DNA of 64,000 bases from Escherichia phage CMSTMSU: the sequence record MH494197.1; one strand, written 5' to 3'. The position numbers were made by a program, and so were the translations under genes. This document shows, piece by piece, positions 15,201 through 34,880 of the stretch (positions are counted from its first letter, which is position 1; every line of letters begins with the position of its first letter). Under the pieces are notes generated by a model. The model was given only the letters and a program-made list of their open reading frames with translations, was not told where the DNA came from and ran no database searches.

Positions 15201-17201
15201 TCTTAATATTGCAAAAATACTGCAATCACTGGTGATTTAGCTGTATCTGGCACACTAACTGCTGGTTCAATCGACCTAAGCAATACTGATGTAACCGTTA
15301 AATCTCTTGATTCACTAGGTAACGCACACATTGCTGGTGACCTAACTGTAGATGGTGCATTCGACTTAAGTGCAACTAACCTTGTAGCTGCAAGTCTAGC
15401 AAGTACTGGTTCTACTACTGTTGGAACTGATCTAGTACTAACAACTGGTGTTGTGACTGGTAGCCCAGCTATCTCTGGTAATACAACAATCGGTGGAACT
15501 CTTGGTGTAACTGGTGCTGTTAACCTAACTGATATTGTTAATATCGGTAAGAAAGTAACAGTGAGTACTGGTGGTATTCAGGTAGTTGATGGTGGTATCA
15601 ATACTAACACAATTAACGTTTCTGGTGCTTCTACTCTAGCAGGAACTTCCATTACTGGAACTTTAGGTGTAACTGGTGCTTCTACTCTAGCAGGTGTATC
15701 TGCGACATCACTAACAGTTTCTGGTGACAGTACTGTTCAGAAACTAACTGTCCAAGGTGAATTGATCCCACAAGGTGGTCTTGACCTAAGCGGTGCAGAC
15801 ATTACTGCTAATAGTCTAACTACTGCAACAACTATCAATGCAACTGGCCTAAGTACTCTAAGTGGTGGTGTTAGTACTTCTACTGTGACTGCATCTGGTC
15901 TAGCAACTGTTGGAAGTTTAACTTCTACTGCAAACGCATCAGTTGGTGGCAATTTGGGTGTAACTGGAACTCTAGATGTTACTGGTGCTACTACTGTATC
16001 TTCACTAACAGCTACTGGTGCAGTGAAAACTGGCACAACCCTAACTGTTGGTACTCCAGTTGGTGAACAACCTGAAACTGTACAGATCATTCCAGATACT
16101 TATATTGCTGGTAAATTGCGTGTAATCGGCGGTATTAACGCTGAAATCGACGTAAGTGGTCAAACACTAGAACCATATGCAATTGAAGCTGCTGCAACAC
16201 TATCTGCTGTTGGTAACATTACTTCTGGTGCAACCATCGTTTCTAAAGCTGCAACAATTGGTGATGTTGGTTCACAAAACAACAACCTAACTGTTAATGG
16301 TAACGTAGTAACTAATGGTGACTTCACCGTTACTGGTGTACTAAATGCACAATTGAACCAAGCAGATTCCGATGTAGCTGTTAAATCTTTAACTGCAACT
16401 AATAACGTTGCGGCTGGTACTTCAATCACTGCTGGAACATCCATCACTGCATCAGGCTTACTAAAAGGTAATTCGTTAGAAGTCACCACTACTGGTTCAT
16501 TTGGTGGTGCAGTAACTATGTCAAGTGGTGCAAACATCACTGGTACTGTTGGTATCACTGCTGGTGACCTAACAGTAGGTGGTAATATCTCTGCAACTGG
16601 GACTGCTGGATTCGGTGCAACAACCGTTTCTACCATTACAACATCAGGTTTAGCTACACTTGCAAGTGCATCTGTAACTGGTGCTCTAACTGTAGGTGGT
16701 ACATTAACTGCAAATGGTAACACTGTGATTGGTGATGCTGCTGCTGATACTTTAACTGTAAATGCAACATCGACATTTAAAGAGAACGCAACATTTGATA
16801 AGAACCTAACAGTGACTGGTTCTATTAACACCACCACTGCAAACTTCACCACAAACAACATGGTAACTAAGAAATATTCTGTTATCCCTGCTAGTGTTAC
16901 TGCTTCTACTGCTGCTGTAGGTGGTACTTGGACACCAGATGGTACTACTAACGTATATCGCTTAACTCTTGACCAAAGTGTTACAATGGATTCCATCGCG
17001 GGTCTAATTGGTAGTGGTCAAGCATGTTCAGTGTATATCTATGTAACTCCATCTGTTGCTGATACTACTTTCACCTTCGGTGGTGCATACTCTGTAGTTT
17101 CTGGTACAGTAAGTGCTGTAGTTGGTCAAACAAGTATTATCCAAGTAATCTATGATGGTTTCAGTACTGTGTTTGATACCTTCGTTGCACAACGTGTATA
17201 A
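12272..17201 (+). CDS. giant tail fibre protein 1 (about 1640 aa; Thr/Gly/Ser/Val-rich repeats; several frameshifts)
   Basis: Same-strand ORFs 12272-13546, 13781-14740, 14884-15240, 15453-17201 with in-phase unlisted segments between; repeated LTVSG/VTGT motifs; C-terminal tip ...VYIYVTPSVADTTF...VIYDGFSTVFDTFVAQRV; RBS GGAGGGA. Confidence 0.7.
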
Positions 17202-17347: not shown

Positions 17348-20300
17348 ATGTACTCGATTAAAACGGATCTTGATGTATCTGGTAATTCCACGGTAGGTAA
17401 GGATCTTTTGGTCAAAGGTAATGCAGTATTCAGTAATGACCTAACGGTTAATGGGGAAGTGTCTTTTGCTAACGCAGTATTCACTGCAATTACCGCTGGT
17501 TCTGTGAATGTCACAGGTGCATTGGATGTTGCTGGTAAGGCAACCTTATCCGGTGGTGCTGATGTTTCAGGTGCTGCGACATTTGCAGGAAACATTACTG
17601 CTGCTGACGGCACAACTGCAAAATTTGATAACTTAGAAGCTAATTCAGGATCATTTAATTCTGTTGAATCAACTGATATTACTTCAACTGGCACAGCAAC
17701 TTTTAAAGATGTAAACATTTCTGGTACACTTGGTGGTACTTTTAATCTTTCTGATATTAATGCTACAACACTTAATGTGTCTGGTGCTTCAGCACTAACT
17801 GGTTCAGTCACATTGGGTGCAAATATCACTGGTCTTGCAAGTACTGCAAACTTCCGTGATATTCGTATCGGGCCTAATGAAGAAGGTCAAGCATATAGAC
17901 TAAACTTTGGTTACACCGTTCGGACAACGACCAACCGTTCTTCTACAGAACGAAGTTCAATCCGAACTAATGTCTCCTGCTAAGTTGAATGTTCTACAAA
18001 CTGCAACATTTGGTGATTCTTCACTTTCAACTTACGGTATTACAGGTAATGGTTTAAACAAATTAGATTATGTAACTATTTCTGGTAACGCAATTCAATC
18101 ACCAACCACTCCTTTACTTGAAGTAACTAAAGGTAAAACTAAAGTTGTTGATTTAGAAGTGACTGGCGTAGCAACTATTCCTAATATCGAAAGTTCTGGT
18201 ACTGCAAACTTTAACAACATCAACGTATCTGGTACTATTGGTGGTAGTTTTGATTTAGATGATATCCAAGCAACAACATTATCAGTATCCGGTGCTTCAG
18301 CACTAACTGGTGCAGTTACATTGGGTGCAAACATCACTGGTCTAGCAAGTACTGCAACATTCAAAGCAATCAATTTGGGTCAAAATACCGCTGATGCTAA
18401 CGTTAAGCTAGGTTTTGCATATACTGCACCTAGTGCACGTCCAACAGTCTTGTTAGCAAACGAAGTTCAATCTGAACTAATGTCTCCTGCTAAGTTGAAC
18501 GTTCTACAAACTGCAACCTTCGGTTCTGCTGCACTATCTACCTATGGTATTACTGGTAATGGTCTAAACAAATTAGATTATCTAACAATTACTGGTAACG
18601 CAACACAAAACCCTGCTACTCCACAACTTCAAGTTGGTGGTAAAGCAATTCTTAATGATGTTGAATTTACAGGTACTGTAACTGGCCTAACTGTTGATGT
18701 GAGTGGACAAGATCTAACTCCTAAATCAGTAGTTGCTGCTGAAGCAATCAAAGGTCAAACTCTTGAATCAGTTGGTCAAACAACTGTAGGTTCATCTCTA
18801 CAAGTTGGTGGTACTGCAACTGTTACTGGTGCATTATCTGCTGCCGCTGGTACTTTCAGTGGTGATGTTAGTGGTTCTAAAGGTATCTTCAGTGATAGCG
18901 TATCCGGTACAAGTGCAACCTTTACTGGGGATGTTAGCGGTGATAACGCAACCTTTAGTGGCGATTTATCTGCTGTAGCTGGCACTTTCAGTGGTGATGT
19001 AACCGTAACTGGTCAAACAATCACTGTTAAAGACTTGGTAGTAACTGGAACTTCAACTGGTGTAACTGCAATCGCTGACGTTGACGGTCTTGATATTGCT
19101 CCAAACAAAGTTGATGTTACAACAACTCTATCTGTTGCTGGTGAATCAACTCTTGCTGGTGTTACAGCAACTTCAATCAATAGTACTGGTGCAATTGCAG
19201 GTACTGCAATTTCTGGCTCTACTATTACAGCAACTGGTGAAATTTCTGGTGCATCATCTGTAGTAACTGGTCTTTCTAAATCTGGTAGCGTTGAAACTGG
19301 TGCTCTAAAGGCATCTTCTGTTGAAACTGCAATCATTAGCAACACTGCTGGTGTGTCAATAACAAACAACACTTCAATTGCAGGTAATCTATCTGTAACT
19401 GGAACTGTTACCCCGTGCAATTGACCTAAGTACTACTGATATTGATGCTAAGTCTCTAACAACTACTGAAGGTGCTAACATTGGTGGTGACCTAGTTGTT
19501 GCAGGTACAGTTGATCTAAGTGCTGCTGACGTTGCTGTTAAATCTCTAACCAGTACTGGTGCAGTTATTAGTTCTGAAGGTACAGTAAGTAGTGTTCTAC
19601 CTAAACTTTCCAGTACTGAAGCTAATATTACCACAGTAACTGCAACCACTGCAAATGCTACCACACTAAATGTAACTGGTACATCAACTCTAGCTGGTGT
19701 TAACGCTTCTGGTGCTATTACTTCTGCAACTAACATTACCGCTACTGGTGTATTAAAGGTGCATCTGTTGAAACTGCGTCAATCAGCAATGCTGATGGTG
19801 TAGCAATTAACAATAACACTACAATCACTGGTAATTTGGACGTATCTGGGACATTGACCCGTGCAATTGACCTAAGTACTACTGATATTAGTTCTAAGTC
19901 TCTAACCACAACTGAAGGTGCTACAATTGGTGGCGATCTTGTGGTAGCAGGTACTGTTGATCTAAGTGCTGCTGATGTGTCGGTGAAATCTCTTGCAAGT
20001 GCAGAGACAATTACAAGTGCTGGTGTTATTACAGTTTCGGATACAGTGAATTCTAGCACTCTACCAAAACTAATTACTACTGATGCAACTATTGGTGCTG
20101 TCCATGCAGCTACTATTGAAACAACTGGTTCAAGTACACTAAAACAAGTATCTGCTACTGAAGTAACAGCTACAAGTATTGTACTAAATTCAGTTGGTGA
20201 AGGTTTACGTGTTGACAATAATGCAAACATTAATGGTATATTAAGTGTTAATAATATTACTTCTACCAATGATACTATTGCAATTGCGAAAAGTGCTGCT

Positions 20301-23050
20301 ATTACTGGTGATCTGACCGTATCTGGAACTGTTACCCCGGTGCAATTGACCTAAGTACTACCGATATTAGTTCTAAATCCTAAGTACTACTGAAGGTGCT
20401 ACAATTGGTGGTGACCTAGTTGTTAATGGTTCAATTGATTTAAGTTCTTCCAATGTTTCAGCAATTACCCTTGCTAGTTCTGGTAATACTACCGTTGGTG
20501 GTAACCTAGTACTAACAACTGGTGTTGTGACTGGCAGCCCATCTGTATCTGGTAACCTTTCAGTTGCAGGTACTGCGGCAGTAACTGGTGCAACTACCTA
20601 ACTGATATCGTAAATATCGGTAAGAAAGTAACTGTAAGCACTGGTGGTATTCAAGTAGTTGCAGGTGGTATTAATACCGACGCTATATTAGTATCCGGTG
20701 ATACAACTTTAAACAACACTACTGTAAACACTACCTTAAATGTAACTGGTCAAAGTACAGTTGCTGCACTAAGTGCTGCATCTTTGAATGTATCTGGTGA
20801 TAGTACTGTTCAAAACTAACAGTTGAAGGTGAATTGGTTCCACAAGGTGGTATCGACCTAACTGGTGCAGATATTTCTGCTAATAGTCTTGCAACTGCTT
20901 CAACAATCACTGCAACTGGACTAAGCACACTAAGTGGTGGTGTAAGTACTACTAATGTTACTGCATCTGGTACAGTGAATGCTGGTAGTTTGGATGTTAC
21001 TAACAACGCAACCGTTGGTGGTAATTTGGGTGTAACTGGTTCATTAACTTCTGGACCATTGAGTGTAACAGGCATTGCGAATATTACTGGTGTAACAACT
21101 GTTGGTTCATTGGTTTCCGGTGCTGTATCTGGTAGTACTGGTACATTTAGTTCAACATTAGGTGTAACTGGTGCAGCTACATTTGACAATGACGTAACTG
21201 TTGAAGGTGTATTCACCCCAGCAGGTGGTTTAGACCTAACAACTTCTGATATTACAGCTAAGAGTTTGTCAGTATCTGAAACTATTCACTCTGATGGTGC
21301 AGCTTCCTTTGGTGGTAACACAACAGTAGGTGGTACATTGGGTGTAACTGGTGCAGTAACTGCTCCATCGGCAACCCTAAGCGGTACTGGTACTGCACTA
21401 GCAGTAACTAATAATGCAACTATTGGTGGTACATTGGGTGTAACTGGTCAAGCAACACTTGGTTCTATAGTAACTTCTGGTGTATCTGCAACAAGTGGCT
21501 CTTTCAGTACTACTCTTGGCGTTACTGGTGCTGCGACATTTGGAAACGATGTAACTGTAGTTGGAACACTAACTCCGGTAGCTTAGATCTAACTGGTGCA
21601 GATATCTCTGCTAAAACACTAACTCTATCTGAAACATTAAATGCGACAGGTAATACTACCCTTGGTGGAACATTAGGTGTAACTGGTTTAGCAACAATTG
21701 GTGGAACACTAACGTCTGGTGCAGTAACTGCTCCATCTGCAACCTTGAATGGTTCAGGAACTGGTCTAGCAGTAACTAACAACGCAACCGTTGGTGGTAC
21801 ATTAGGTGTAGTTGGTCAAACAACACTAGGTTCTGTTAAAACTGGTGCAACTCTAACAGTTGGTACACCATTAGGTGAGCAGCCTGAAACTGTACAGATT
21901 ATGCCAGACACTTATATTGCTGGTAAACTACGTGTTGAGGGTGGTATTAACGCAGATATCGATGTTGGTGGACAAACACTAGAACCGTTTGCAGTAATAG
22001 CATCTGATTCTTTATCTTCTGCTGGTAATATTACTGCTGGTGCGGCAATTATTTCAAGTTCTGCAACAATTGGTGAAGTCGGTTCACAAAACAACAACCT
22101 AATCGTTAATGGTAACGTTGTAAACAACGGTAACTTCACTGTTACTGGTGTACTAAATGCACAATTGAACCAAGCAGATTCCGATGTAGCTGTTAAGTCT
22201 TTGACTGCAACTAACAACGTAGCTGCTGGAACCACATTAAGTGCAGGTACTGCAATTACTGCTGGTACTTCCATCACTGCAACTGGATTACTTAAAGGTA
22301 ATACTTTATTACTACTACTGGTTCATTTGGTGGTGCAGTAACTATGTCAAGTGGTGCAAACATCACTGGTACAGTGGGTATTACTGCTGGTAACCTAACA
22401 GTGGGTGGTGATATCTCTGCAACTGGCACTGCTGGATTCGGTGCAACAACCGTTTCTACAATTACAACATCAGGTTTGGCTACACTTGCAAGTACATCCG
22501 TTACTGGTAACGCAACAGTAGGTGGAACACTAGCAGTAACAGGAGCACTAACTGCGAATGGTAACGTAACATTAGGTGACGCAGCGGCTGACGTTCTAAC
22601 CGTTAATGCAACTTCATCATTTAAAGAAAATGCTGTGTTTGATAAGGCAGTAACAGTAACTGGTGAACTAACCACTACTAATGCTAACTTAACTACTACA
22701 ACAGTAACTACCAAAAGTATGATGTAATCCCAACTCAAGTTACATCATCAGTAATTGCTCCAACCGGAACATGGACTCCAGATGGTACAAGTAACGTGTA
22801 CTTCATCACTCTAGACCAAGATACCACGTTGGCTCCAATTACTGGCCTAATTGGTGGCGGTAAAGCTGCATCAGTATACATCTATGTTAAACAAGATACA
22901 ACTGGTAACAGAAACTTTACAACTGATGGTACTTATGCTGTTGTTGATGGTGAACTAAACAAAACTGCTGGTAGCGTGACCATTTACCAAGTAATTTATG
23001 ATGGTGTAAGTCCAGTTACTGATTTGTTCATTGCACAACGTACTGCTTAA
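17348..23050 (+). CDS. giant tail fibre protein 2 (paralog of fibre 1; about 1900 aa; several frameshifts)
   Basis: N-terminus MYSIKTDLDVSGNSTVGKDLLVKG matches fibre 1 MYSIKTDLDITGGATVGKDLLVKG; long near-identical nucleotide blocks shared with fibre 1; divergent but homologous C-terminal tip ending VIYDGVSPVTDLFIAQRTA. Confidence 0.7.
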
Positions 23051-25945: not shown

Positions 25946-25975
25946 AAAAGGAGACTTATGTCTCCTTTTCTTTAT
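25946..25975. terminator. bidirectional terminator hairpin between convergent genes
   Basis: aaaaGGAGACttatGTCTCCtttt; sequence context very similar to the 5626 hairpin. Confidence 0.5.
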
Positions 25976-26962
25976 ACAGCCATTGGTGCTTTGATCGTTG
26001 GCATTGGATCGTAATTAACTAATTTGAAAGAATCCATAGTGAAATCTTCAATATCAGTAATAGTAGGATCTAACCATAATTCTGGTAATGTACGTGGTTC
26101 ACGTTGGAGTTGCTCTTTTACTTGTTCAATATGGTTTTGATAGATATGGCAGTCGCCACCATTCCAAATAAATTCACCAACATCTAACCCTGTAATTTGT
26201 GCAATCATATGAGTTAGTAGTGAGTAACTACTAATATTAAATGGCACACCAAGGAATAGATCAGCACTACGTTGATGAAGAATACAACTTAGTTTACCCT
26301 GTACAACACAAAACTGCACAAAGCTATGACAGGGTGGCAAAGTCATAGCATCAAGCTCACCAACGTTCCATGCACTTAGAATGTGACGACGACCATATGG
26401 ATCAGTATTGATACCTTCAATAACTTGTTTTAGCTGGTCAGTTACGACGCATAATAACACCATGTGAACCAGTATAATCAATAACTTTATACCCTTTATC
26501 TTTTAGTTCTTGAATTTCTTCAGTACTGGAACTGAATTTATAATCTTCCCATTCACGCCATTGTTTACCATAAACTGGGCCAAGCTCACCATCAGAATAC
26601 CCAAGGCTTACACCTTGATTAAGGTAGTTGTCTGTCCAAATTGTTTTCTTTTCTACATCACGTGTCCCGTGTAAAATTTCACACAGACGACGCTCATCGT
26701 GAGAACCTTCAATAAACCATAACAATTCTGAAGTCATTGCTTTCCAAGCTAAACGTTTAGTAGTTACTGCTGGGAAACCTTCTTTTAGGTCAAAACGCAT
26801 TTGTTGTCCGATTAGCTTGATAGTGCCAACACCAGTACGATCAACGCTTTCGACACCTTGATCCAGAATTCTTTGATATAGTTCTTGTAGTTGTTTCATT
26901 TTACGTCCTTGAAAAATGTAATAAAGTGTTCCATGTGTTTTGTGTAGCATTACGTGAACCAA
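25972..26962 (-). CDS. thyA: thymidylate synthase (one frameshift near 26440-26480)
   Basis: N-part [36 protein letters not shown] and C-part [42 protein letters not shown] in adjacent frames. Confidence 0.85.
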
Positions 26963-27493
26963 TCCCAGTCCAGTTACCGTGTGGTGCTGGTATTGAGAAT
27001 GTTTCAGTAAACTCTTTCAGTACTGTATCATAATAAAATACAGAGCGAGTGTTCATATCATAACAATATATTTCTGGATTGTCAACTGAATCCATATACA
27101 TCTGTACGGCCCATGCAGTTCCACCTGAAACTTGCGTAGGTGATGTAATATTTGCAATACAATATACTCTTTTGTATTAAGTATCTGGTAACTATTCCTT
27201 GCAAGTAAGTTATATACATACGAACCGCTTAGGAACTTTACGGCGTAAAGAGTAACATGCAATGTTTAATTGTTTTAATATTGAACTATCACAAAGGATA
27301 TTGGGTGGAATTTCTAATATAGTATTTTCATCTACGCTGCTTTGGTGACCCTTGAATGAAAAATTTATTACTTCAAATCCATTGTCTTTTGCATAGATAG
27401 AAAAAGGCGGTCAGCACCTGCTGCCCGCCACTGAAACATACATTAGATAAACCATTGATTGCTTCATCTAATTCTATTTTATTCATTTATATT

Positions 27494-28143
27494 ATTTTGC
27501 TTTACGTTCTGCAAATGCCTGTTTAACTTTCTCAATTGCTTTGGTTTGTGAAATTCCTTCTGGGATTTCAATATAGAAAGTTTTGCTATCAGGTGCTACA
27601 GGTGTTGCTTGAACTTGTGGACGTAGAGATGGTTCTAAGTTGTAAGCACGTTCAAAGTGCTCTTTAGCCAACTGCTCATAACGTTGTGCATCTTTAAGTA
27701 GTTGCTCAACAATGGTAGCTTCTTCAACAGAAGTATCAACTTCTTGTGGCTTGAATGGGTTGTATTCTTTAACTTTACCATCTTCATGTTTTTAGCATCA
27801 TTATCATTGATTGCGTTGTTTAGAACATCAAGAGAAATCTTACTGTTTCCACCAACATGCATATCAATATCACAAGTACGTGCACGACGCAAATGTTGTA
27901 GATTATGAAGAACATCTAGCATTTTGCGACCGTCTAGATGACCAATCTTATGCATAACTTCCCACAAATCTACATTCGATTGACCTTGATTCATTACTAA
28001 ATCTGCAACAGATTGAGCATATGCTTCAGGAAGTGAGTCGCGATAAACAATGAGACAATGTTCTGGATCATCAGGAGTGAACGCCATACCACAAATACTC
28101 GTGAACCCGTATTACGTACTACACCAACGTGACGAATAGCCAT
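27494..28143 (-). CDS. hypothetical protein (frame-broken)
   Basis: ATG at 28143 with RBS GGAG (MAIRHVGVV...), continuing into ORF 27635-28087; function not recognised. Confidence 0.3.
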
Positions 28144-28176
28144 TATTATTCTCCTTTATTTTGTTCAGCAGCAGCT

Positions 28177-28377
28177 TGTGCAGCATCAGCTTCTTCTTGT
28201 GCTTTGATATCTTCGAGTGCAGAGTTAGCAAACTCAACAAACTTAGATACGACTGGAGCAACATCAACAAGTTCTTCGACTTTAAATGAATTACGAGCCA
28301 CAGCAGCTTCCATGATTTTAGCAGCGTTGATTAGGTCGATTAGTGTTAGTTGAATTTTTCTGGTTCTTGTTCCATTT
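28177..28377 (-). CDS. small acidic helical protein (below ORF-track size cutoff)
   Basis: MEAAVARNSFKVEELVDVAPVVSKFVEFANSALEDIKAQEEADAAQAAAEQNKGE; the overlapping plus-strand ORF 28129-28353 is low-complexity Ser/Ala and looks antisense. Confidence 0.3.
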
Positions 28378-28410
28378 TAATACTCTCCATGTATGTTGTT
28401 ACAAATATAA

Positions 28411-28440
28411 TTATATCACCTTTTTCCAAGCTGTCCCGCT
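28411..28440 (-). promoter_or_regulatory. sigma70-like extended -10 promoter (TGATATAAT) with CGGGACA upstream element
   Basis: Reverse complement gCGGGACAgcttggaaaaaggTGATATAAT; same architecture at about 59374-59405. Confidence 0.35.
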
Positions 28441-28445
28441 GAAAA

Positions 28446-28475
28446 AGTAGAAACGGAATTTTCCGTTCTCATTAT
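28446..28475 (-). terminator. intrinsic terminator after the VWA-domain gene
   Basis: Minus-strand hairpin AACGGAaaatTCCGTT followed by TCTACTTTTTC. Confidence 0.45.
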
Positions 28476-29889
28476 TTAGTACTTAGCTACGTTGACGCTT
28501 TTGTCAGCTTCATATTCGTAGTGTACAGTTTCGCCAAATGGTGCTTGTTTGTTAGGATTGCTGTGGATAACAAACAGTGTCTTACAGTAATCAGGATCAC
28601 CCCATGACTGCCACGGCTCACCATCGGTAAACATAATAAGCTGTTTAGGCTTATAGTTGTCATGCTTCATATGAACCCATACTGCTTCAAAGTCAGTACC
28701 ACCACCACCTTTCACTGGATATTCGAGAATCTTACTCTCTTCACCAGTTTTGTAATCTTTCACAGTATAAACTTCAGTATCGAACGTCATGATACGGATT
28801 TTAAATTGTTTAAACTGCTTAGTGATACCCAGTACTTCACTGATGAAATCACGGAGCATATCTTCAGAGATAGAACCGGATGCATCTAGTGCAATTGCAA
28901 TATCAATATCATCATCTGGTTTCATACCGGGAAGATTGGATTCCCGTAGAATGAACCAGAACTACCAAAACCAGCACCCCATGAACGACGATTAGGATTT
29001 TGATAAGTTGCATCAGACTTCAACCAGCTACGCAGTGTGCGGTGAAGTTTAGAACGCCAGTCAATCTTAGGTTCTTTGAAGTTGTTAATCATACGTGCGA
29101 TTTCAGCAGGAGTACCACCTGCACGAGCAGCATTCATCATTGCTGTTTTGAAATCATCCATATAATCACGTTTTTGTTTCTCACTTGAACCACCCTCTTG
29201 ACCTTCTTGTGGAACGTCATGCTGGTCGATTGTTGTACCTTTGCCTTTACCATCTTTGATATCACCAAAAGTACCGCGTGATTTACCTTCACCCTCACCA
29301 CTACCAGCCTGTGGATTTCCTTCACCTTCTCCGTCTTGATCCTGCTTATCTTCTTCTTCGAGAATATTATAAATCTCTTCAGCAGTCATACCATCGTACT
29401 TTTTATCGTACAGCCATTGGCTTTGGATTTTACCAATTTTATCACGAACAAGAATCTGGTTAATTGCATAGTCAGCAGCACGGTTATAACGCTGCGGGTC
29501 ACGCATACCACGACGCAAGAAGTGGTCATATGCACAGTGAAGAATTTCATGACAAATAACTGCAATCAGGTTTTCATCAGTCAAACCTTCTGTCATTTCT
29601 TTAAGTTGTTCTTCAGTTACTTCAGGATGTTTCTCACGAATTGCTTCTTCGTATGCTGACTTTTGGATTGGTCCTGAATACCCATGATGAATTCTACGTT
29701 GTAGAATAAATGCTTACCATCTACAGCCAAAGTACGACACCATGTGTTGTTTGCAACTGGACGCAGACGAGAAGCCAGTACACCAAAGAATGGGAATGTT
29801 AGCATTAAAGATGTGCGAGCTAAGATCAGACGATCTTGACATTCTTTCTGGAGAGCCGGAGTAACATCACTGAAACGTTTATCTGACAT
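28476..29889 (-). CDS. VWA-domain protein with N-terminal HExxH metallopeptidase-like domain (DUF2201-type; frame-broken)
   Basis: HEILH in AVICHEILHCAYDHF (ORF 28922-29596); VWA-like DIDIAIALDASGS...TDG (ORF 28476-28925); N-terminal LTFPFFG segment (ORF 29617-29889). Confidence 0.65.
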
Positions 29890-29962
29890 TTGTATTTCCT
29901 CGTTTAGTTAAGATAAAGAAGGATACCATGTGGTATCCTCCTTGTCAACACTCTTTTAATTA

Positions 29963-31288
29963 TTAACCAAGAGAGCGTGCTTTACGTACTAGGTCAGAGT
30001 ACTTCATAACGAAGTCTTTAAACGCTGGTACATCTTTAATCGTAATCGCTACTTTATGAAGCGTGATGGTACGAATCGCCAGTACTGCCAGTTCTGCTTG
30101 AGTTGCAGAGAAGTTATGGTCTAGGAAGGTGATGAAGTTGTTGCACAGCTTACCCCAATCTTCCACTGGTAGACGTTGTTCTTGCTTCTCATTGTAGAGG
30201 TCGATAATTTTGTAAACCAGATTCAGAGTGATGAAGTAGTTCGCGGAAATATCGAGCGAAGCATCAATCTCTTTAATCTCACCCTGTAGGATGGACATGG
30301 TATCTGGTAGTTTAGCTACGTTATCAACATACTCGATGTATTCAGTTGCTACGCCTTCACCAACACGACCTGCAATCATCGCACGGAACACTTCTTTATC
30401 AATGTTCTTAACTTTCTTCAGATCTTCGTAGCGTGCTACTGCTTCCCATGAACGTGGAGAAGTACCACCACAGTGAGAAGGATCTTGTGGGCTAAGGGTG
30501 TTGAAGTGTTTAGCACCAGTGTTGTTGATGAACGCTACAGTTGCTGGGTTCAAACGCTTGCCAATCGCATAATCGTTAATCCAATCTTGATGATAAGGAA
30601 TCATTTCGATGTGGGTCATACGGTCACGCAGTGGTGTAGCTAGAGAGAACGTTACACCGCCATCAGTTTCACGGTTACCTGCTGCGAGAATCAGTGCAGT
30701 CTTAGGTAGCTTCATCTCACCAACACAACGGTCGAGGATTAGCTGATAAGACGCTGCCTGTACAATCGGCATTGCAGAGTTGATTTCGTCAAACAGAATA
30801 ACACCTTTCCAATCTGGAGACAGTTTCAGTACTTTAGGTGCTGCCCACACAACTGCTGTTTCAGCGATGTAATCTTGTGCACTAGCCAGTTCAGATTCAA
30901 TCAGTTGCTTACCATCCATATCAAGGAACACTTTCTCTGGAACTGGGATACCACGAAGGTCACTTGGTTCAATCTGAGACAAACGGAAATCGATAAAGTT
31001 AGTGTCTTGGTCGATTAGTTTGGCTTCAAACGCTGCCAGTTCACGGCGAAGTTGATCAGCATTTTCAGTATCAGCTTCGATTTGTTGTTTCATGAACTCA
31101 ATTTTGCCACGTTATCTTTACGCAGTGGGTAGTTCTCATCAGCGTATTGACGTGCGATAGCAGATTTACCGATACGGGCTACCCCAAATCATCAGGCTAT
31201 CTTGAATCATGTCAGCCAGTGCCATTGCTTCTTTAGCTTTCTTAGGAGTCAGTTTTACGTTCAGGATATCGTTGTTTTGAGTAGACAT
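29963..31288 (-). CDS. MoxR/CobS-like AAA+ ATPase (frameshift near N-terminus)
   Basis: Walker B VILFDEINSA, sensor-like ATPLRDRMTH in the 376-aa ORF; GKS-containing Walker A-like segment (IGKSAIARQYA) in a shifted frame upstream; ATG 31288 with RBS AAAGGAAA. Confidence 0.7.
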
Positions 31289-31455
31289 GTATATTTTCCT
31301 TTTGTTGGATAAAATCGTTTAGGTTTCTATTATAGCCAATCCGTGGGCAAAGTAAAGGAACTGTGTTAAAAGAATTTTAACTTATCAGTTCCTTTGTTAC
31401 TTCATGAATCATCCGTGTATTTAAAAGGCATTTCTCTTTGCCGTCTTGATGTGTC

Positions 31456-31483
31456 ATTATATCACATCGTTCAGGCTTGTCAA
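31456..31483 (-). promoter_or_regulatory. sigma70 consensus promoter TTGACA-N16-TGATATAAT (proximal of tandem pair)
   Basis: Reverse complement TTGACA agcctgaacgatgtga TATAAT. Confidence 0.5.
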
Positions 31484-31545
31484 CAACTTTTTTATTTCTT
31501 TTCAATCTCACATCTTGTGATTTTGAAAACTTGCTTCGTGGTGGT

Positions 31546-31574
31546 CATTATAACACATCATTCGGCGTTGTCAA
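31546..31574 (-). promoter_or_regulatory. sigma70 consensus promoter TTGACA-N16-TGTTATAAT (distal of tandem pair)
   Basis: Reverse complement TTGACA acgccgaatgatgtgt TATAAT; lies in the second of two ~53-nt direct repeats (31453-31505, 31543-31596). Confidence 0.5.
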
Positions 31575-31977
31575 CATCTTTTTCTTTATTTTCGAAGCTA
31601 CATGTGCATCGAAAATAACATTCTAAAATCATCACCACACAATGTTAACTCTGTAACTATCATTTGCGTCGAGAGGTATATGTACTGCCCTTCTACATAG
31701 TAGGGTGAAGTACATATCCTATCAAGCGATGTAAAGATTATAGAACTTTTGAACTCTCTTTGCAAGGGGATTTTTGTAAATTCGTAAAGAATGTTTTCTT
31801 TACAAATTGTATATCCAAACTTGCTAAGTCTTAAACCACCGCCAGTTCTGAAATTTTCAAAATTGACATCAGAAGCATACGGTCTGTTAATTCAGCGTCT
31901 GATCCATGTACTTCTCTAACTTTTAAAAGTACATCGTTTTGAAATTCAGTACTGTTGTGTGGTTCAGGAATCATAAA

Positions 31978-33351
31978 TTACATCCCCACGAAACCCTGTC
32001 TTGCTGCATATGAAGGAGCATCTTTAACTTTATAGTCTTGGACACCATCTTTACCAATTTTCGGACCCATATCTTTGGTTCCGAAGCAGCAATCAGTGGA
32101 TTCATCAACTTCTTCAGTACTTTCATCATTATATCGAACATCCGATAAAATGTCACACGCTTTTGAAGCTTTTCTACGATTTCTTTTGATCTTCACCTGA
32201 TTTAACCTTATCCACAATGTGGATAAGGCATTCGGTGATATCTTTAAGTAAATCGGTGGCAACAGCATCAGAAGGAGTCTCAACTGCAAAACTTTCTTCT
32301 TCAGTAGATTCTTCACTAGAAGTGATTTCATCTAATGCTTCAACCAATTCACGATAATTATATCCCATCTTATTTGTCCCTAGAAATTGTTGATATTTCT
32401 TCTGGAGACTTTCGAAAATGTCTTCGACTTCTTCATCGCTTTCATCTTCTAGTTCTTCGTTACCTTCCACGGACTCATCACTCTCATTAACATTGAGTGG
32501 GTTGTCACCTAGAGCAGTACACGGAAACTTAGGTTCAAATTTGTGAACACGGTTCTCGTTACCGTCATTGTCATAGTACTCTGGTTCAGGACGATTGTCA
32601 ACATCTTCATCAACGACACGTCTCCAGTAGAACTTGTTACCCTTGGTAATAACAACAAAGTGGTCACCTTCTACACCATTAGTTTTAGCTTGACCGTCAC
32701 GAACAGCATCAGCTTCAGTGTTGTAAGGGCCAAAATCAGTACTGTCACCTTGTTCTTCATCTTCAGAGATGGTTAGGTCTGGTAGGAAAGTGTTTTCTTC
32801 AACTTTAACTTCAGTATCTGGGTTACCTTCTACAGAATATTCATCTTCTGGTTCGTCTTGAAGACCAGCTAGAGATAGCATACGACTGAAATCGAATTCT
32901 TCTTCGATGATTTCTTCTTCTTCCTCTTCTTCAACTGATTCTAGTTGAGGTTGACCGGAAAGATCTAAAGAAAACTCTTCTTCATCTGCAACACGGCTCT
33001 TCGAACTCTGCATCCATACTTACTTCTTCAGAATCACCACCAAAATCACCAGCTTCAGCAGATAGTGAGTCAGCAGCAACTTCTAATGGGTCTTCAACAG
33101 GTGCATCAATTGCACCATCCATTGAACCACCAACTTCTTCTTCTGCACCAGCACCAATTGAATCCATATCGAGTGGTGCGATTGGTGTAGAAAGGGTCAT
33201 TGACCCATAGAAGGAACTGGAGCAGCAACAGGAGAAGCTTGACGCTCGGCTTGACCAGCTAGTGCAAGCATACGAGATAGTGTTTCTAGATCTTCAGATT
33301 CTAGTCCTGCGATATCGATTTTAACTTGTGCTTCATTAATTTTTTAGCCAT
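31978..33351 (-). CDS. large highly acidic (Glu/Asp-rich) protein, about 450 aa (frame-broken)
   Basis: ORFs 32982-33200, 32174-33013, 31978-32331 plus N-terminal piece from ATG 33351; runs such as EEEEEEEIIEEEFDF; an A6 run near 33340 breaks the start. Confidence 0.5.
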
Positions 33352-33474
33352 TTTAAATAAATCCTTTTAGTTATCAATCATTCTTATTTAATGATTTTAA
33401 AATTTGCACTGTTTCATCCTTTTTACCAGATAGTAAAATGTCAGCAGCAATTAGAGAAACCTCATCACCACGCG

Positions 33475-34880
33475 TTAAGAGTACTGTAATTTTCTTAGCG
33501 TAAGGTGATTCTTTAATTCGTGAAGCCAATGATTGAACTTCATCACCGGAGCAGGAACTTCAGGTTCTGGCTCTGATACAGGTTCTGGTTCTTTAGTAGG
33601 TTCAGCTTTTGGTTCAACTACATCAGTACTTGATACTTCAGCATCTACTTTATCTTCAGGTTCTTCTTCTTTCTTATCAGCACGTTCTGCATCATAACGA
33701 GCAAGAATGTCATCAGCAGTTGATTTTGGAATCAATTTACCATCAGCACTAATAAAGCGGTTACCACCGATATAAGAATACTCTGTGCCTTTCTTAGATT
33801 TTACTTTAGTTCCGATTTTCATTGCACCAGAACTATTATGGCGAATTATATCACGTTGAGCAGCACGTTCAACACTTTTGCAGCACTAGAATTTAGTTGT
33901 TTTTAGTTTCTACATCAAACCATGCATTTTTTGTTTAATGTATGTTTTACCTTTATTTGAAGTAATGCGGTAACCATGTGGAACCACAACAGATTCAGTT
34001 TCTTCAATCTCTTCATCTGCTTCATTAATGGATTCTTTTGTTGCGAATACTGGCTGTTTTACTGGTTGTTTAGGTTGTTCTGGCTTTTCACCTGAACCAA
34101 AACGTTGTTCACCTGATTCATGATCACCAGTTAGTGAAGGAAAATCACCGGGTTAGCCTTAACAAATTGTTGATATGCATTAAAGATTACATGTGCATTT
34201 TGTTCTGGAATTACAACATTACCATCATTATCACAAAATTCTTTACCATTCCATTCTGAACGAGTATTACCTTGTACTAATGTAGATTTAATTGGAATTA
34301 GTTTGTTTTTGGTGCTAATTGGCGAGCAATACGCATACCTTCATCGGAAAGTTTACGTGTCATTGCTGGGTCAACTGGACGTCCAGATTTTGCATCAACA
34401 AAACGGTGATTTTAGGGATGAATTTAAATCCACTAACTTCCATACCTGCTGGAATAGAAATATCATCAGCATATGGTGGAAGGATATAGAATTTTAGGGA
34501 GTTCCATTCTTTTGTAGAGTTTCTTTTGAAACATTATATACACGGTGGTCATCTGCCATTAGTTCAGTGATAATTTCACTTTCAGTTAGTAGAATTCCAT
34601 CTTTAGAATTGAAACGATTTTCACCAAGAAATGTACACTCTTTACCTTCAAGAATATATTTTTACCAATTTTATATTCACTAGAAGATAGATTGTGCTCA
34701 ACAATCTGTTGTCGAGCACTTGCGTACATGGATGGGTATTTTTAGGGTCTACCATTAACATATTATTGTCGTTAAACCAGAAACCTTCTAGAAATACATA
34801 TTTGCCACCAGTGTGAGAAGTATATACATATCCATTAGGTACTGTGGTAGTTTCAGTACTGAAAAAATTATCCATGTGTT
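33475..34880 (-). CDS. hypothetical protein with Glu/Pro/Lys-rich linker (frame-broken; limits uncertain)
   Basis: ORFs 34648-34917 and 33475-33822 plus in-phase unlisted segments between them. Confidence 0.3.

What the first reader, a model, noticed from the sequence alone, without database searches (positions are those of the whole stretch)
28476..31596. MoxR AAA+ ATPase and VWA/HExxH metallopeptidase-like protein expressed from tandem consensus sigma70 promoters
The two adjacent minus-strand genes form the classic MoxR-VWA pairing, here with an HEILH metallopeptidase-like N-domain on the VWA protein. They are preceded by two near-perfect TTGACA-N16-TGnTATAAT promoters embedded in ~53-nt direct repeats, and followed by their own terminator. 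The function of such pairs in phages is unresolved, and strong host-type promoters argue for early, high expression.
Basis: partly seen in the sequence, partly recalled or inferred. Interest (0 to 1): 0.62.

Follow-up and report, generated by a model that had tools for sequence, protein, structure and literature searches.

The report
Known phage MoxR-VWA-peptidase gene pair
This is a real but already described jumbo-phage gene pair (an AAA+ motor plus a metal-binding adaptor fused to a protease-like domain) behind two textbook host-type promoters; its function is still unknown, and the breaks in both genes in this window are sequencing errors.

Summary
The window comes from an Asteriusvirus-type jumbo coliphage, 99% identical to WPEC3 and fEgEco12.

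**Confirmed**
- The gene pair exists. The downstream protein is DUF2201_N (HExxH zincin-like) plus a DUF2201 VWA domain with an intact MIDAS motif.
- The upstream protein is a MoxR-class AAA+ ATPase. The evidence is fold (best matches NorQ and CbbQ) and distant homologues, not a direct Pfam match. AAA_5 and CobS do not hit.
- Both 12/12 TTGACA/TATAAT promoters with TGn exist, inside 56-nt repeats 91 nt apart. They are conserved in the 121Q group.

**Corrections**
- In the window, five frameshifting deletions break the two genes into six ORFs. These are nanopore-type errors: window-wide deletions at homopolymers, and every CCWGG site lost. Relatives have intact genes.
- The unit is not a plain operon. 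A conserved terminator-like hairpin sits in the leader. A conserved hairpin with a T-run sits between the genes, with an overlapping TTGACA promoter-like site (PeSL-like).
- The pair is already published: N4 gp24/gp25, the Iyer et al. 2021 jumbo-phage survey, and the phAPEC6 annotation "MoxR ATPase / N4 gp25-like". GenBank's "HNH endonuclease" label is a misannotation.

Function is unresolved. The likeliest reading is an ATP-driven remodelling and protease machine with an unknown target. Interest is low to moderate.

The parts
31544..31599 (-). Upstream copy of the 56-nt direct repeat. It carries promoter P1 and an A-rich stretch upstream of the -35.
   Evidence: Repeat family D1, 77% identical to the other copy, 91 nt spacing.
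31547..31574 (-). Promoter P1: TTGACA, 16-nt spacer ending in TGT, then TATAAT.
   Evidence: 12/12 match with TGn. Present in WPEC3 and Turkey5 at 12/12 and in 121Q at 11/12.
31453..31508 (-). Downstream copy of the 56-nt direct repeat. It carries promoter P2.
31456..31483 (-). Promoter P2: TTGACA, 16-nt spacer ending in TGA, then TATAAT.
   Evidence: 12/12 match with TGn. It is 12/12 in WPEC3, 121Q and Turkey5. RaK2 has a single 12/12 site at the equivalent place.
31345..31395 (-). Leader stem-loop (AAAGGAACTG ... CAGTTCCTTT) followed by the T-rich tail ACTTTGCCC. It is a candidate attenuator or terminator, or the 3' end of a short leader RNA.
   Evidence: The leader folds at -23.4 kcal/mol, z -3.3; the intact WPEC3 version gives -24.4, z -3.65. 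A hairpin occupies the same position in 9 relatives, with two-sided stem changes (GGAACTG/CAGTTCC, GGCACTG/CAGTGCC, AGCACTG/CAGTGCT). The G17 record annotates it as a putative terminator.
31329..31356 (-). Weaker promoter-like site P3 (TTTACT, spacer, TATAAT), overlapping the tail of the leader hairpin.
   Evidence: 10/12 match. The spacer is 17 nt in the intact relatives; the window lost one T. It is weaker or absent in more distant relatives.
29963..31288 (-). MoxR-class AAA+ ATPase gene, 442 aa in relatives. In the window it is broken by artefactual deletions at about 31175 (2 nt, in CCTGG inside the Walker A codons) and about 31101 (1 nt).
   Evidence: ORFs; alignment to WPEC3; intact translation. 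Alignment A1 shows G39, K42, S43, E169, N206, R207, R224 and R280 invariant. AF2 model has pLDDT 87.6. Best fold matches are NorQ and CbbQ2.
29916..29948 (-). Intercistronic composite element. It combines a -35 TTGACA (29948-29943), a 12-bp hairpin (29943-29916) whose 3' arm holds TGgTATCCT, and a following T-rich run. It resembles a PeSL terminator/promoter.
   Evidence: 10/12 promoter-like match with TG. Folds at -19.9 kcal/mol, z -3.95. Flagged as terminator-like in intact WPEC3. A hairpin with a T-run fills this gap in all 9 relatives, with unrelated stem sequences. Annotated as a terminator in Munch.
28483..29889 (-). Gene for the DUF2201_N (HExxH zincin-like) plus DUF2201 VWA/MIDAS protein, 469 aa in WPEC3. 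In the window it is broken by artefactual deletions at about 29660, 28928 (CCAGG) and 28498. The ORF end at 28476 is the stop of a frameshifted tail.
28440..28468 (-). Intrinsic terminator after the VWA gene.
   Evidence: In the intact relative the stem is GAGAACGG...CCGTTCTC (9 bp) followed by TACTTTTTTC. The window lost a stem base at 28451. A terminator sits at this position in all relatives examined, and the G17 and Munch records annotate it.
31598..31974 (-). Conserved upstream neighbour: a 125-aa protein of unknown function (phrog_15638), also frameshifted in the window.
   Evidence: Immediately upstream of the ATPase in 64 of 83 viral loci. PHROG hit but no Pfam hit.

Best explanation
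**What it is**
The locus encodes a two-protein machine. It is intact in reality; the breaks in the window are sequencing artefacts.
- The first protein is a MoxR-class AAA+ ATPase that probably forms a hexameric ring.
- The second is a partner whose C-terminal VWA domain would dock on the ring and grip a target through its MIDAS metal site.
- The partner's N-terminal HExxH zincin-like domain would cleave, or be activated on, that target.

**How it is expressed**
- Host sigma70 RNA polymerase would start at two tandem consensus promoters with extended -10 elements and A-rich upstream DNA. This implies expression before the late genes.
- Output is probably shaped by two conserved structures: a terminator-like hairpin in the leader, and a hairpin with a T-run, overlapped by a promoter-like site, between the genes.
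- This arrangement would yield more ATPase than VWA partner. That would fit the single NorD bound to a NorQ hexamer in the solved NorQD complex.

**Shown versus inferred**
- Shown here: domain identities, conserved catalytic and MIDAS residues, the sequence signals and their conservation, gene pairing and synteny.
- Inferred: hexamer formation, docking of the partner, protease activity, actual transcription starts and stops, expression timing, and the target.
- The target could be a virion-assembly intermediate, or a host or phage non-structural protein. I rate these two options about equally likely.
For: **Sequence quality and gene integrity**
- Close relatives have intact genes of 442 and 469 aa.
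- The window's indel pattern is window-wide and systematic.

**Protein identities**
- Pfam gives DUF2201_N at 125.8 bits and DUF2201 at 77.8 bits.
- HExxHCxxxH and the MIDAS residues DxSGS, T and D are invariant in 39 homologues.
- The ATPase model (pLDDT 87.6) shows a beta-hairpin insert after helix 2 and a strand pair before sensor 1.
- Its best PDB matches are NorQ and NorQ-NorD complexes, and CbbQ2 ranks 17th.
- Walker A, Walker B, N206, R224 and R280 are invariant.
- Short homologues carry AAA_3, AAA_5 and bpMoxR.

**Pairing**
- The ATPase precedes the VWA gene on the same strand in 78 of 83 viral loci. The same order holds in most of the 51 bacterial or MAG loci.

**Precedent for the mechanism**
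- In NorQD, the VWA finger enters the pore of the hexamer.

**Regulatory signals**
- Promoters.
- Hairpins and terminators: with independent annotations.
- The ATPase-VWA gap is structured in 81% of 54 wider viral loci (z below -2). It is terminator-like in 26 of 56 loci, against 11 of 280 shuffled controls.

**Abundance hint**
- The phAPEC6 virion mass-spectrometry table lists the ATPase gp265c (6 peptides) but not the VWA protein gp264c. This fits ATPase being more abundant than its partner.
Against: - No experiment exists for this protein family in any phage.
- The ATPase fails Pfam thresholds for AAA_3 and AAA_5. It matches solved structures by sequence only at the P-loop.
- There are no transcript data for any Asteriusvirus. 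The leader hairpin has an interrupted T-tract, so it may be a poor terminator.
- In EJP2 the consensus promoter lies downstream of the hairpin rather than upstream.
- The -10 of the intercistronic promoter-like site is weak (TATCCT).
- Timing is ambiguous. The pair sits at the end of a tail and neck gene block on the same strand, with no terminator before P1, so late read-through is possible.
Confidence: 0.6

Rival explanations
1. Virion-assembly chaperone and protease. The pair folds and proteolytically processes structural proteins, as Iyer et al. 2021 proposed for jumbo phages and as reported for the MoxR-vWA pair of Acidianus two-tailed virus.
For: - The proposal is published.
- The genes sit directly downstream of a tail and neck structural gene block on the same strand.
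- A gene resembling a virion structural protein (phrog_13349) lies upstream of the pair in 37 of the wider viral loci.
- The ATPase and the downstream neighbour c7 (217 aa) were detected in phAPEC6 virion preparations.
Against: - The promoters are host-type, a class predicted to be early in the related phage CBB. CBB and GAP32 have an ATAAATA late motif, and no TATAAATA occurs at 27000-34000 here.
- The N4 homologues are middle genes.
- The pair is core to phages with very different virions: N4-like podoviruses, rV5-like myoviruses and Rak2-like myoviruses.
- The same phAPEC6 MS list also contains thymidylate synthase and SSB, so detection may only reflect abundance.
- The CBB record marks its neighbours as structural but not the ATPase.
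Confidence: 0.3
2. The genes are real pseudogenes in this phage, so the module is decaying and non-functional here.
For: Five frameshifts fall within the two genes of the window.
Against: - The same kind of deletion occurs across the whole window: 186 deletion events in 50 kb.
- All 41 CCWGG sites present in WPEC3 over that stretch are lost from the window.
- Neighbouring essential-looking genes, such as thymidylate synthase, are also split.
- Every relative at 98-99% identity has intact genes.
Confidence: 0.03
3. CobS/CobT-type cobaltochelatase subunits, or another metal-insertion auxiliary metabolic pair (NorQD- or CbbQO-like) that matures a metalloenzyme. The nearby nucleotide-metabolism enzymes would be candidate clients.
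For: - The fold resembles NorQ and CbbQ.
- MoxR-VWA pairs classically insert metals.
- Thymidylate synthase lies nearby here and in N4-like phages.
Against: - No CobS, CobT, NorD or CbbO family hits appear in Pfam or NCBIfam.
- The partner carries a zincin motif that is absent from the NorD, CbbO and CobT descriptions.
- No client metalloenzyme is conserved next to the pair. The conserved neighbours are small proteins of unknown function.
Confidence: 0.1
4. The second gene is an HNH endonuclease, as labelled in many GenBank records, or the pair is a conflict or defence-type MoxR-vWA system.
For: - PHROG 1314 carries the description 'HNH endonuclease', and many records copy that label.
- MoxR-vWA ternary conflict systems do exist.
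Against: - There is no HNH family hit in Pfam. The matches are DUF2201_N, DUF2201 and VWA.
- HExxH is a zincin motif.
- There is no PADLOC hit for either protein.
- The pair is a core gene set of strictly lytic phage groups.
Confidence: 0.03

Closest known systems
MoxR AAA+ and vWA pair with an N-terminal metallopeptidase in 'group 2.2' jumbo phages (Iyer et al. 2021, PMC7824862); phAPEC6 gp265c 'MoxR ATPase' and gp264c 'N4 gp25-like'
   Same: The architecture and phage group are the same. phAPEC6 matches this window region at 86% nucleotide identity, and its VWA protein is about 90% identical in amino acids.
   Different: Nothing differs at the protein level. The regulatory anatomy described here is not mentioned in the passages of those papers that I read: tandem promoters, leader hairpin and intercistronic composite element.
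Phage N4 gp24 (AAA ATPase) and gp25 (vWFA), core genes of N4-like phages
   Same: It is an adjacent ATPase then VWA pair of unknown function. The N4-like gp25 homologue of LUZ7 is detected by tblastn (2e-24, 28% identity). The K64-1 homologue is named 'gp25-like'.
   Different: - Similarity is distant, about 24-28% identity.
- The ATPases of the short viral homologues (about 360 aa; those of N4-like roseophages are about 398 aa) lack the two insertions of the jumbo-phage version. I did not align N4 gp24 itself.
- In N4 the genes are middle genes, transcribed by phage RNA polymerase, not from host-type promoters.
NorQ-NorD and CbbQ-CbbO (bacterial MoxR-VWA remodellers)
   Same: - These are the best structural matches for the ATPase (E 2e-7; TM about 0.6 normalised to the target).
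- They are also a gene pair.
- Their mechanism offers a model: a VWA finger enters the pore of the hexamer.
   Different: - Sequence identity is only 11-14%.
- The phage ATPase has an extra helical hairpin (residues about 57-91), an enlarged beta-hairpin (about 115-150) and a long helical C-terminal domain.
- The phage partner has a zincin-like N-terminal domain and no known metalloenzyme client.
PeSL elements (composite early-promoter and stem-loop terminator cassettes of T4-like phages; Arbiol 2010, Comeau 2014)
   Same: - A TTGACA -35 sits directly against a GC-rich stem-loop in a short intergenic gap.
- Many wider viral loci carry a perfect TTGACA, hairpin, TGTTATAAT arrangement between the two genes.
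   Different: - In this window the -10 lies inside the 3' arm and is degenerate (TATCCT).
- PeSLs were defined in hyperplastic regions of T4-like phages. Here the element separates two functionally linked core genes.
RavA-ViaA of E. coli
   Same: It is a MoxR ATPase with a VWA partner encoded in one operon.
   Different: No detectable sequence match. RavA has LARA and triple-helix domains, and ViaA has no peptidase domain. This comparison comes from my own knowledge and the abstracts only.

Membership tests
MoxR-class AAA+ ATPase | Walker A GxxGxGK[ST] and Walker B hhhhDE | tested here: met
   GSPGIGKS and VILFDEIN are present in the intact relative. G39, K42, S43 and E169 are invariant, and D168 is at least 90% conserved, in 43 homologues. 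In the window itself the Walker A codons are hit by the 2-nt artefactual deletion.
MoxR-class AAA+ ATPase | Helix-2 insert and pre-sensor-1 beta-hairpin | tested here: met
   The AF2 model (pLDDT 87.6) has strands 115-123 and 142-150 after helix 109-113. It also has a short strand pair at about 189-194, before strand 200-206.
MoxR-class AAA+ ATPase | Matches Pfam AAA_3 (PF07726) or AAA_5 (PF07728) above the curated cut-off | tested here: not met
   AAA_3 scores 17.9 bits against a cut-off of 27, and AAA_5 gives no hit. However, 12 and 14 of the 43 aligned homologues, all short forms, match AAA_3 and AAA_5 at E no greater than 1e-3.
MoxR-class AAA+ ATPase | Fold closest to solved MoxR members | tested here: met
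   NorQ chains fill the top 11 Foldseek ranks (best E 1.9e-7), and CbbQ2 (6l1q) ranks 17th. Other AAA+ proteins (RFC, McrB, RuvB) first appear from rank 12.
MoxR-class AAA+ ATPase | Encoded next to a VWA-domain partner | tested here: met
   78 of 83 viral loci, always in the order ATPase then VWA. The same order holds in most of the 51 bacterial or MAG loci.
MoxR-class AAA+ ATPase | Hexamer with ATPase activity that binds its VWA partner | not testable with these tools
   Needs biochemistry, cryo-EM or multimer modelling.
VWA / MIDAS domain (Pfam DUF2201, PF09967) | Family HMM above cut-off and VWA fold | tested here: met
VWA / MIDAS domain (Pfam DUF2201, PF09967) | MIDAS motif: DxSxS, then T, then D | tested here: met
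   D341, S343, S345, T404 and D428 (P0121 numbering) are invariant in 39 homologues. The window reads ALDASGS, GGGGT and FTDG.
Zincin-like metallopeptidase (Pfam DUF2201_N, PF13203) | Family HMM above cut-off; HExxH plus a third metal ligand | tested here: met
   125.8 bits against a cut-off of 23.2. In HEILHCAYDH, residues H118, E119, H122 and H127 are invariant.
Zincin-like metallopeptidase (Pfam DUF2201_N, PF13203) | Zincin fold or peptidase activity | tested here: inconclusive
CobS/CobT cobaltochelatase subunits | Match to CobS or CobT family models | tested here: not met
   None in Pfam or NCBIfam.
HNH endonuclease (GenBank and PHROG label) | HNH nuclease domain | tested here: not met
   Only the description of PHROG 1314 says HNH. 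Pfam shows DUF2201_N, DUF2201 and VWA, and no HNH family.
Known anti-phage defence systems (PADLOC) | Match to any PADLOC model | tested here: not met
   No hit for either protein.
Sigma70 promoter with extended -10 | TTGACA, 16-18 nt, TGnTATAAT, in an intergenic position upstream of a gene | tested here: met
   P1 and P2 are 12/12 with TGn and spacer 16, lie between the stop codon at 31598 and the ATG at 31288, and are conserved in relatives. Activity has not been tested.
PeSL composite promoter/terminator | Near-consensus sigma70 promoter combined with a stem-loop in a short intergenic region | tested here: inconclusive
   The -35 is perfect and the stem-loop is strong, but the -10 is only 4/6 (TATCCT). 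Full versions occur at the same gap in wider viral loci. Degraded PeSLs are described.

The most novel reading that the evidence does not exclude
The pair may be the core of a conserved five-gene cassette: a 125-aa protein, the ATPase, the VWA-peptidase, an ~81-aa protein, then a 217-aa protein. Versions of the pair are shared by Rak2-like, rV5-like and N4-like phages. On this reading it acts before late gene expression as an ATP-driven, MIDAS-targeted protease on a host or non-structural phage target, not in virion assembly. Its roughly 6:1 subunit dosage would be hard-wired by a conserved leader attenuator and by a composite terminator/promoter between the two genes.
Probability: 0.25. Interest if true: 0.6.

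Novelty: already known. Interest (0 to 1): 0.28.

Why it matters
The module occurs in at least 724 deposited phage genomes and 584 IMG/VR stretches. It is a core gene pair of N4-like phages. Yet I found no tested function for it in the literature searched, and it is widely mislabelled 'HNH endonuclease'.

Solving its role would annotate a large block of phage dark matter. It would also add a protease-coupled variant to the MoxR-VWA family of machines.

This window adds no new protein. What this analysis adds is a concrete, testable map of the locus's regulatory signals. It also gives a clear warning: the window's sequence carries systematic nanopore and Dcm-site errors that break genes.

Tried and rejected
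**Database and family searches that gave nothing useful**
- Direct Pfam and NCBIfam assignment of the ATPase to AAA_5, CobS or MoxR gave only sub-threshold hits.
- PADLOC returned nothing.
- Rfam over 28300-32100 returned only a chance-level hit in coding sequence.
- Sequence searches of PDB, with a single sequence and with a profile, found only the P-loop and integrin-type VWA similarities.
- Two fold searches of the VWA protein did not identify the N-terminal domain.
- The conserved neighbour proteins c2, c7, c8, c3 and c6 have no Pfam domain.

**Literature and context checks**
- The PA5oct omics paper has no statement on its homologues.
- A bacterial-genome scan found mostly MAG contigs and a few isolate loci with the same gene order. 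One Brucella locus looks like a mobile element. This gave no clue to function.

**Sequence-analysis attempts**
- The literal pattern 'TTGACA-N16-TGnTATAAT' finds neither promoter, because the TGn lies inside the 16-nt spacer.
- I looked for the 'TGAAACG' variant -35 reported for CBB and GAP32. A partial version sits in the P2 spacer (TGAACG; TGAAACG in 121Q), but there is no consistent pattern in the window.
- The TTTTGCTTA string after the leader hairpin in RaK2 and Munch looks like a T4 MotA box. I rejected that reading because its spacing to the -10 is too short (my own reading).
- The MAFFT alignment of the leader hairpins (A3) misaligned the 5' arms. I therefore ran no formal pair-count statistics and read the compensatory changes by eye.
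- Programmed frameshifting was considered and rejected, given the window-wide error pattern.

Full report
**1. Source and sequence quality**

The region 28300-32100 matches 49 phage records. The best matches, at 99.1-99.2% identity, are the Asteriusvirus-type jumbo coliphages WPEC3, WPEC5, EC.P1, fEgEco12 and Ecwhy_1. The 121Q, PBECO4 and phAPEC6 group matches at 86%.

In those records the two genes are intact: an 'ATPase' of 442 aa and a 469-474 aa protein labelled 'HNH endonuclease', 'Zn-dependent hydrolase' or 'VWA domain-containing'.

In the window they are not intact.
- The ATPase reads in three frames: 31288-31166, a shifted stretch, then 31093-29963.
- The second gene is three ORFs: 29889-29617, 29596-28922 and 28925-28476.

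Alignment with WPEC3 shows that every indel in this stretch is a deletion in the window. The deletions fall in A/T homopolymers or in CCWGG sites.

Over 50 kb the window has 186 deletion events against 13 insertion events.
- 123 deletions are at homopolymers of at least 4 nt.
- 30 are at CCWGG.
- Most of the remainder are at G3 or C3 runs.
- WPEC3 has 41 CCWGG sites in that stretch, and the first 50 kb of the window has none.

This is the signature of nanopore base-calling errors at homopolymers and Dcm-methylated sites, not biology. Thymidylate synthase (25972-26962) is split in the same way. The errors also weaken regulatory signals. One T is missing from the T-run after the intercistronic hairpin, and one stem base is missing from the downstream terminator. 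Only the intact relative is flagged for the intercistronic element.

**2. The proteins**

*The second protein.*
- It matches Pfam DUF2201_N, a putative metallopeptidase domain, at 125.8 bits. It matches DUF2201, a VWA-like domain, at 77.8 bits.
- In 39 homologues down to about 40% identity, HExxHCxxxH and the MIDAS residues (DxSGS, the T of GGGGT, the D of FTDG) are invariant.
- The AF2 model has pLDDT 77. Its low-confidence Gly/Glu-rich linkers are at 193-219 and 298-331.

*The ATPase.*
- It is not recognised by Pfam at curated thresholds. AAA scores 21.5 bits, AAA_3 scores 17.9 bits against a cut-off of 27, and AAA_5 gives no hit. NCBIfam gives nothing relevant.
- It belongs to PHROG 1297, 'ATPase'.
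- Homologues of about 360 aa at 28-35% identity do carry AAA_3, AAA_5 and bpMoxR.
- The alignment shows why the jumbo-phage form escapes detection. It has an insertion of about 45 aa directly after the Walker A helix and a second insertion of about 25 aa.
- The AF2 model has pLDDT 87.6. It places the first insertion as a helical hairpin (57-91) and the second within an enlarged beta-hairpin (115-150) after helix 2. A short strand pair precedes sensor 1.
- The best PDB matches are NorQ and NorQ-NorD complexes, and CbbQ2 ranks 17th.
- Walker A, Walker B, N206, R207, R224 and R280 are invariant.

I accept 'MoxR-class' on fold, remote homology and partner context.

PADLOC has no match for either protein. 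The 'HNH endonuclease' label comes from the description of PHROG 1314 and has no domain support.

**3. Promoters**

- P1 (31574-31547) and P2 (31483-31456) are 12/12 matches with a 16-nt spacer whose last three bases are TGn.
- They lie in 56-nt direct repeats that are 77% identical and 91 nt apart. A-rich DNA lies upstream of each -35.
- Only one other 12/12 site exists in the window, at 2282-2255. It has the same spacer, TGn and aTGTGwTATAATg string. It lies upstream of the gene annotated as an ATP-dependent protease in WPEC3.
- Three perfect sites compare with 0.21 expected.
- The tandem pair is conserved in WPEC3, Turkey5 and 121Q (P1 is 11/12 in 121Q). RaK2 has one 12/12 site. EJP2 has one 12/12 site plus an extended -10 site. 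Munch, CBB, GAP32 and Yersinia phage fHe-Yen9-04 keep an extended -10 (TGnTATAAT) with a weak -35.
- In the related phage CBB, RpoD-like promoters with UP-like elements were predicted to be early.

**4.

(a) *A leader hairpin.* Between P2 and the ATPase start lies a leader of about 160 nt. It contains a long stem-loop (31395-31354) followed by a T-rich tail.
- The leader folds well below shuffled controls, at z -3.3 to -3.65.
- All nine relatives have a hairpin at the same place.
- Stem changes are compensated on both sides: GGAACTG/CAGTTCC, GGCACTG/CAGTGCC and AGCACTG/CAGTGCT.
- A conserved TTTTGC...ACGGATT string follows.
- The G17 record annotates it as a putative terminator.

(b) *A third promoter-like site.* A 10/12 site (31356-31329) overlaps the hairpin's tail.

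(c) *An intercistronic element.* The 73-nt gap between the genes holds TTGACA, then a 12-bp hairpin, then a T-rich run.
- It folds at -19.9 kcal/mol, z -3.95, and is flagged as terminator-like in the intact relative.
- Every relative has a GC-rich hairpin with a T-run in this gap, with unrelated stem sequences.
- The Munch record annotates it as a terminator.
- In wider viral loci the gap is structured in 81% of 54 cases (z below -2). It is terminator-like in 26 of 56 loci, against 11 of 280 shuffled controls.
- Many of those loci read TTGACA, hairpin, TGTTATAAT. That is the composite early-promoter/terminator design known as PeSL in T4-like phages.

(d) *Downstream signals.* After the second gene comes a canonical terminator, and then the next extended -10 promoter (28437-28410) for the following genes.

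The unit is therefore: promoters, leader hairpin, ATPase, terminator/promoter composite, VWA gene, terminator. Whether the two genes share a transcript depends on read-through, which cannot be settled here.

**5. Distribution and context**

- The VWA-peptidase protein is found by tblastn in 724 phage records. These include Rak2-like jumbo phages, PA5oct-like phages, Atu_ph07, rV5-like phages, phages of about 120-145 kb, and N4-like podoviruses. One of the N4-like hits is LUZ7 'N4 gp25-like'.
- In IMG/VR at least 584 stretches encode an ATPase relative.
- In 78 of 83 loci the VWA gene follows the ATPase on the same strand.
- A 125-aa protein (phrog_15638; window 31974-31598) precedes the ATPase in 64 loci.
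- Two further proteins of unknown function (phrog_13789 and phrog_15894) follow the pair in about 40 loci. None of these neighbours has a Pfam domain.
- In this phage the cassette lies at the downstream end of a long tail and neck gene block. It is followed by DprA-like and thymidylate synthase genes.
- N4-like phages also have thymidylate synthase shortly after gp24/gp25.

**6. What is already known**

- N4 gp24 (AAA ATPase) and gp25 (vWFA) are listed as core genes of N4-like phages. Their function is unknown and they are middle genes.
- Iyer et al. 2021 explicitly describe a MoxR AAA+ and vWA pair in group 2.2 jumbo phages. The vWA protein is fused to an N-terminal metallopeptidase. They propose a role in virion assembly with proteolytic processing, by analogy with Acidianus two-tailed virus.
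- The phAPEC6 record annotates gp265c as 'MoxR ATPase' and gp264c as 'N4 gp25-like'.
- The phAPEC6 virion MS table lists gp265c (6 peptides, 19% coverage) and gp262c (1 peptide), but not gp264c. It also lists thymidylate synthase and SSB, so virion association is uncertain.
- For the mechanism, NorQD cryo-EM shows a VWA finger entering the NorQ pore, with ATP-driven remodelling of the NorD linker.

**7. Interpretation**

My best-supported reading is as follows. The pair forms an ATP-driven remodelling machine whose adaptor also carries a zincin-type protease. It is transcribed by host RNA polymerase from strong promoters, and conserved hairpins limit how much of the partner is made. The fact that phAPEC6 MS detected the ATPase but not the partner fits that dosage idea, but this is an inference only.

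The target is unknown. Synteny with structural genes and the MS hit favour virion assembly. The promoter class, the N4 middle-gene timing and the presence of the pair in phages with very different virions favour a non-structural or host target. I cannot separate these two options.

Real pseudogenisation, a cobaltochelatase role, an HNH nuclease and a defence system are each contradicted by the tests above.

**8. Verdict**

The gene pair is already described, so its novelty is low. The remaining value is a widely conserved module of unknown function and a now explicit, testable regulatory map.

Noticed in passing
whole window (quantified for 1-49504): The assembly has systematic nanopore-type errors. 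Against WPEC3 there are 186 deletion events and 13 insertion events in 50 kb, mostly at homopolymers. All 41 CCWGG (Dcm) sites of the relative are destroyed, so the first 50 kb of the window has none. Many genes therefore look fragmented.
   Followed up: yes
25972-26962 (-): Thymidylate synthase is split into two overlapping ORFs (174 aa and 169 aa) by the same kind of frameshift. It is intact at 930 nt in WPEC3.
   Followed up: partly
2282-2255 (-): This is the third and only other 12/12 promoter in the window. It has the same 16-nt spacer, TGn and aTGTGaTATAATg string. It lies just upstream of the gene annotated as an ATP-dependent protease in WPEC3.
   Followed up: partly
28483-29889 (-) and homologues in GenBank: The VWA-peptidase protein is labelled 'HNH endonuclease' in many records, following the description of PHROG 1314. 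No HNH domain is detectable, so the label is a propagated misannotation.
   Followed up: yes
31598-31974, 28146-28400 and 27492-28143 (-); loci L001-L083: Three small proteins of unknown function (phrog_15638, phrog_13789 and phrog_15894) flank the pair in 64, 38 and 42 of 83 viral loci. This suggests a conserved five-gene cassette. The 217-aa member was seen with one peptide in the phAPEC6 virion MS.
   Followed up: partly
L013, L016, L019, L034, L042, L083 (gap between ATPase and VWA genes): Environmental viral contigs carry perfect TTGACA, GC-hairpin, TGTTATAAT elements (PeSL-type composite promoter/terminators) exactly between the two genes.
   Followed up: partly
28437-28410 (-): An extended -10 promoter-like site (GGGACA, 16-nt spacer, TGaTATAAT) sits right after the terminator of the VWA gene and ahead of the next small genes. 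Equivalent sites occur in all relatives. In CBB and GAP32 the site has the TGAAACG variant -35 reported for those phages.
   Followed up: partly
12755-13978 versus about 17700-18900, and 16007-16703 versus about 21800-22400 (+): The two large tail-fibre genes share internal paralogous segments of about 77-84% identity. They appear as off-diagonal BLAST hits against WPEC3.
   Followed up: no
32174-33013 (-): This is a very acidic, low-complexity ORF rich in E/D runs. It corresponds to an annotated 'virion structural protein' upstream of the cassette.
   Followed up: no
L001 4673-4765 (window about 31457-31548): WPEC3 annotates a 30-aa CDS that spans the interval between the two tandem promoters. 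It is probably a spurious call over regulatory DNA.
   Followed up: no
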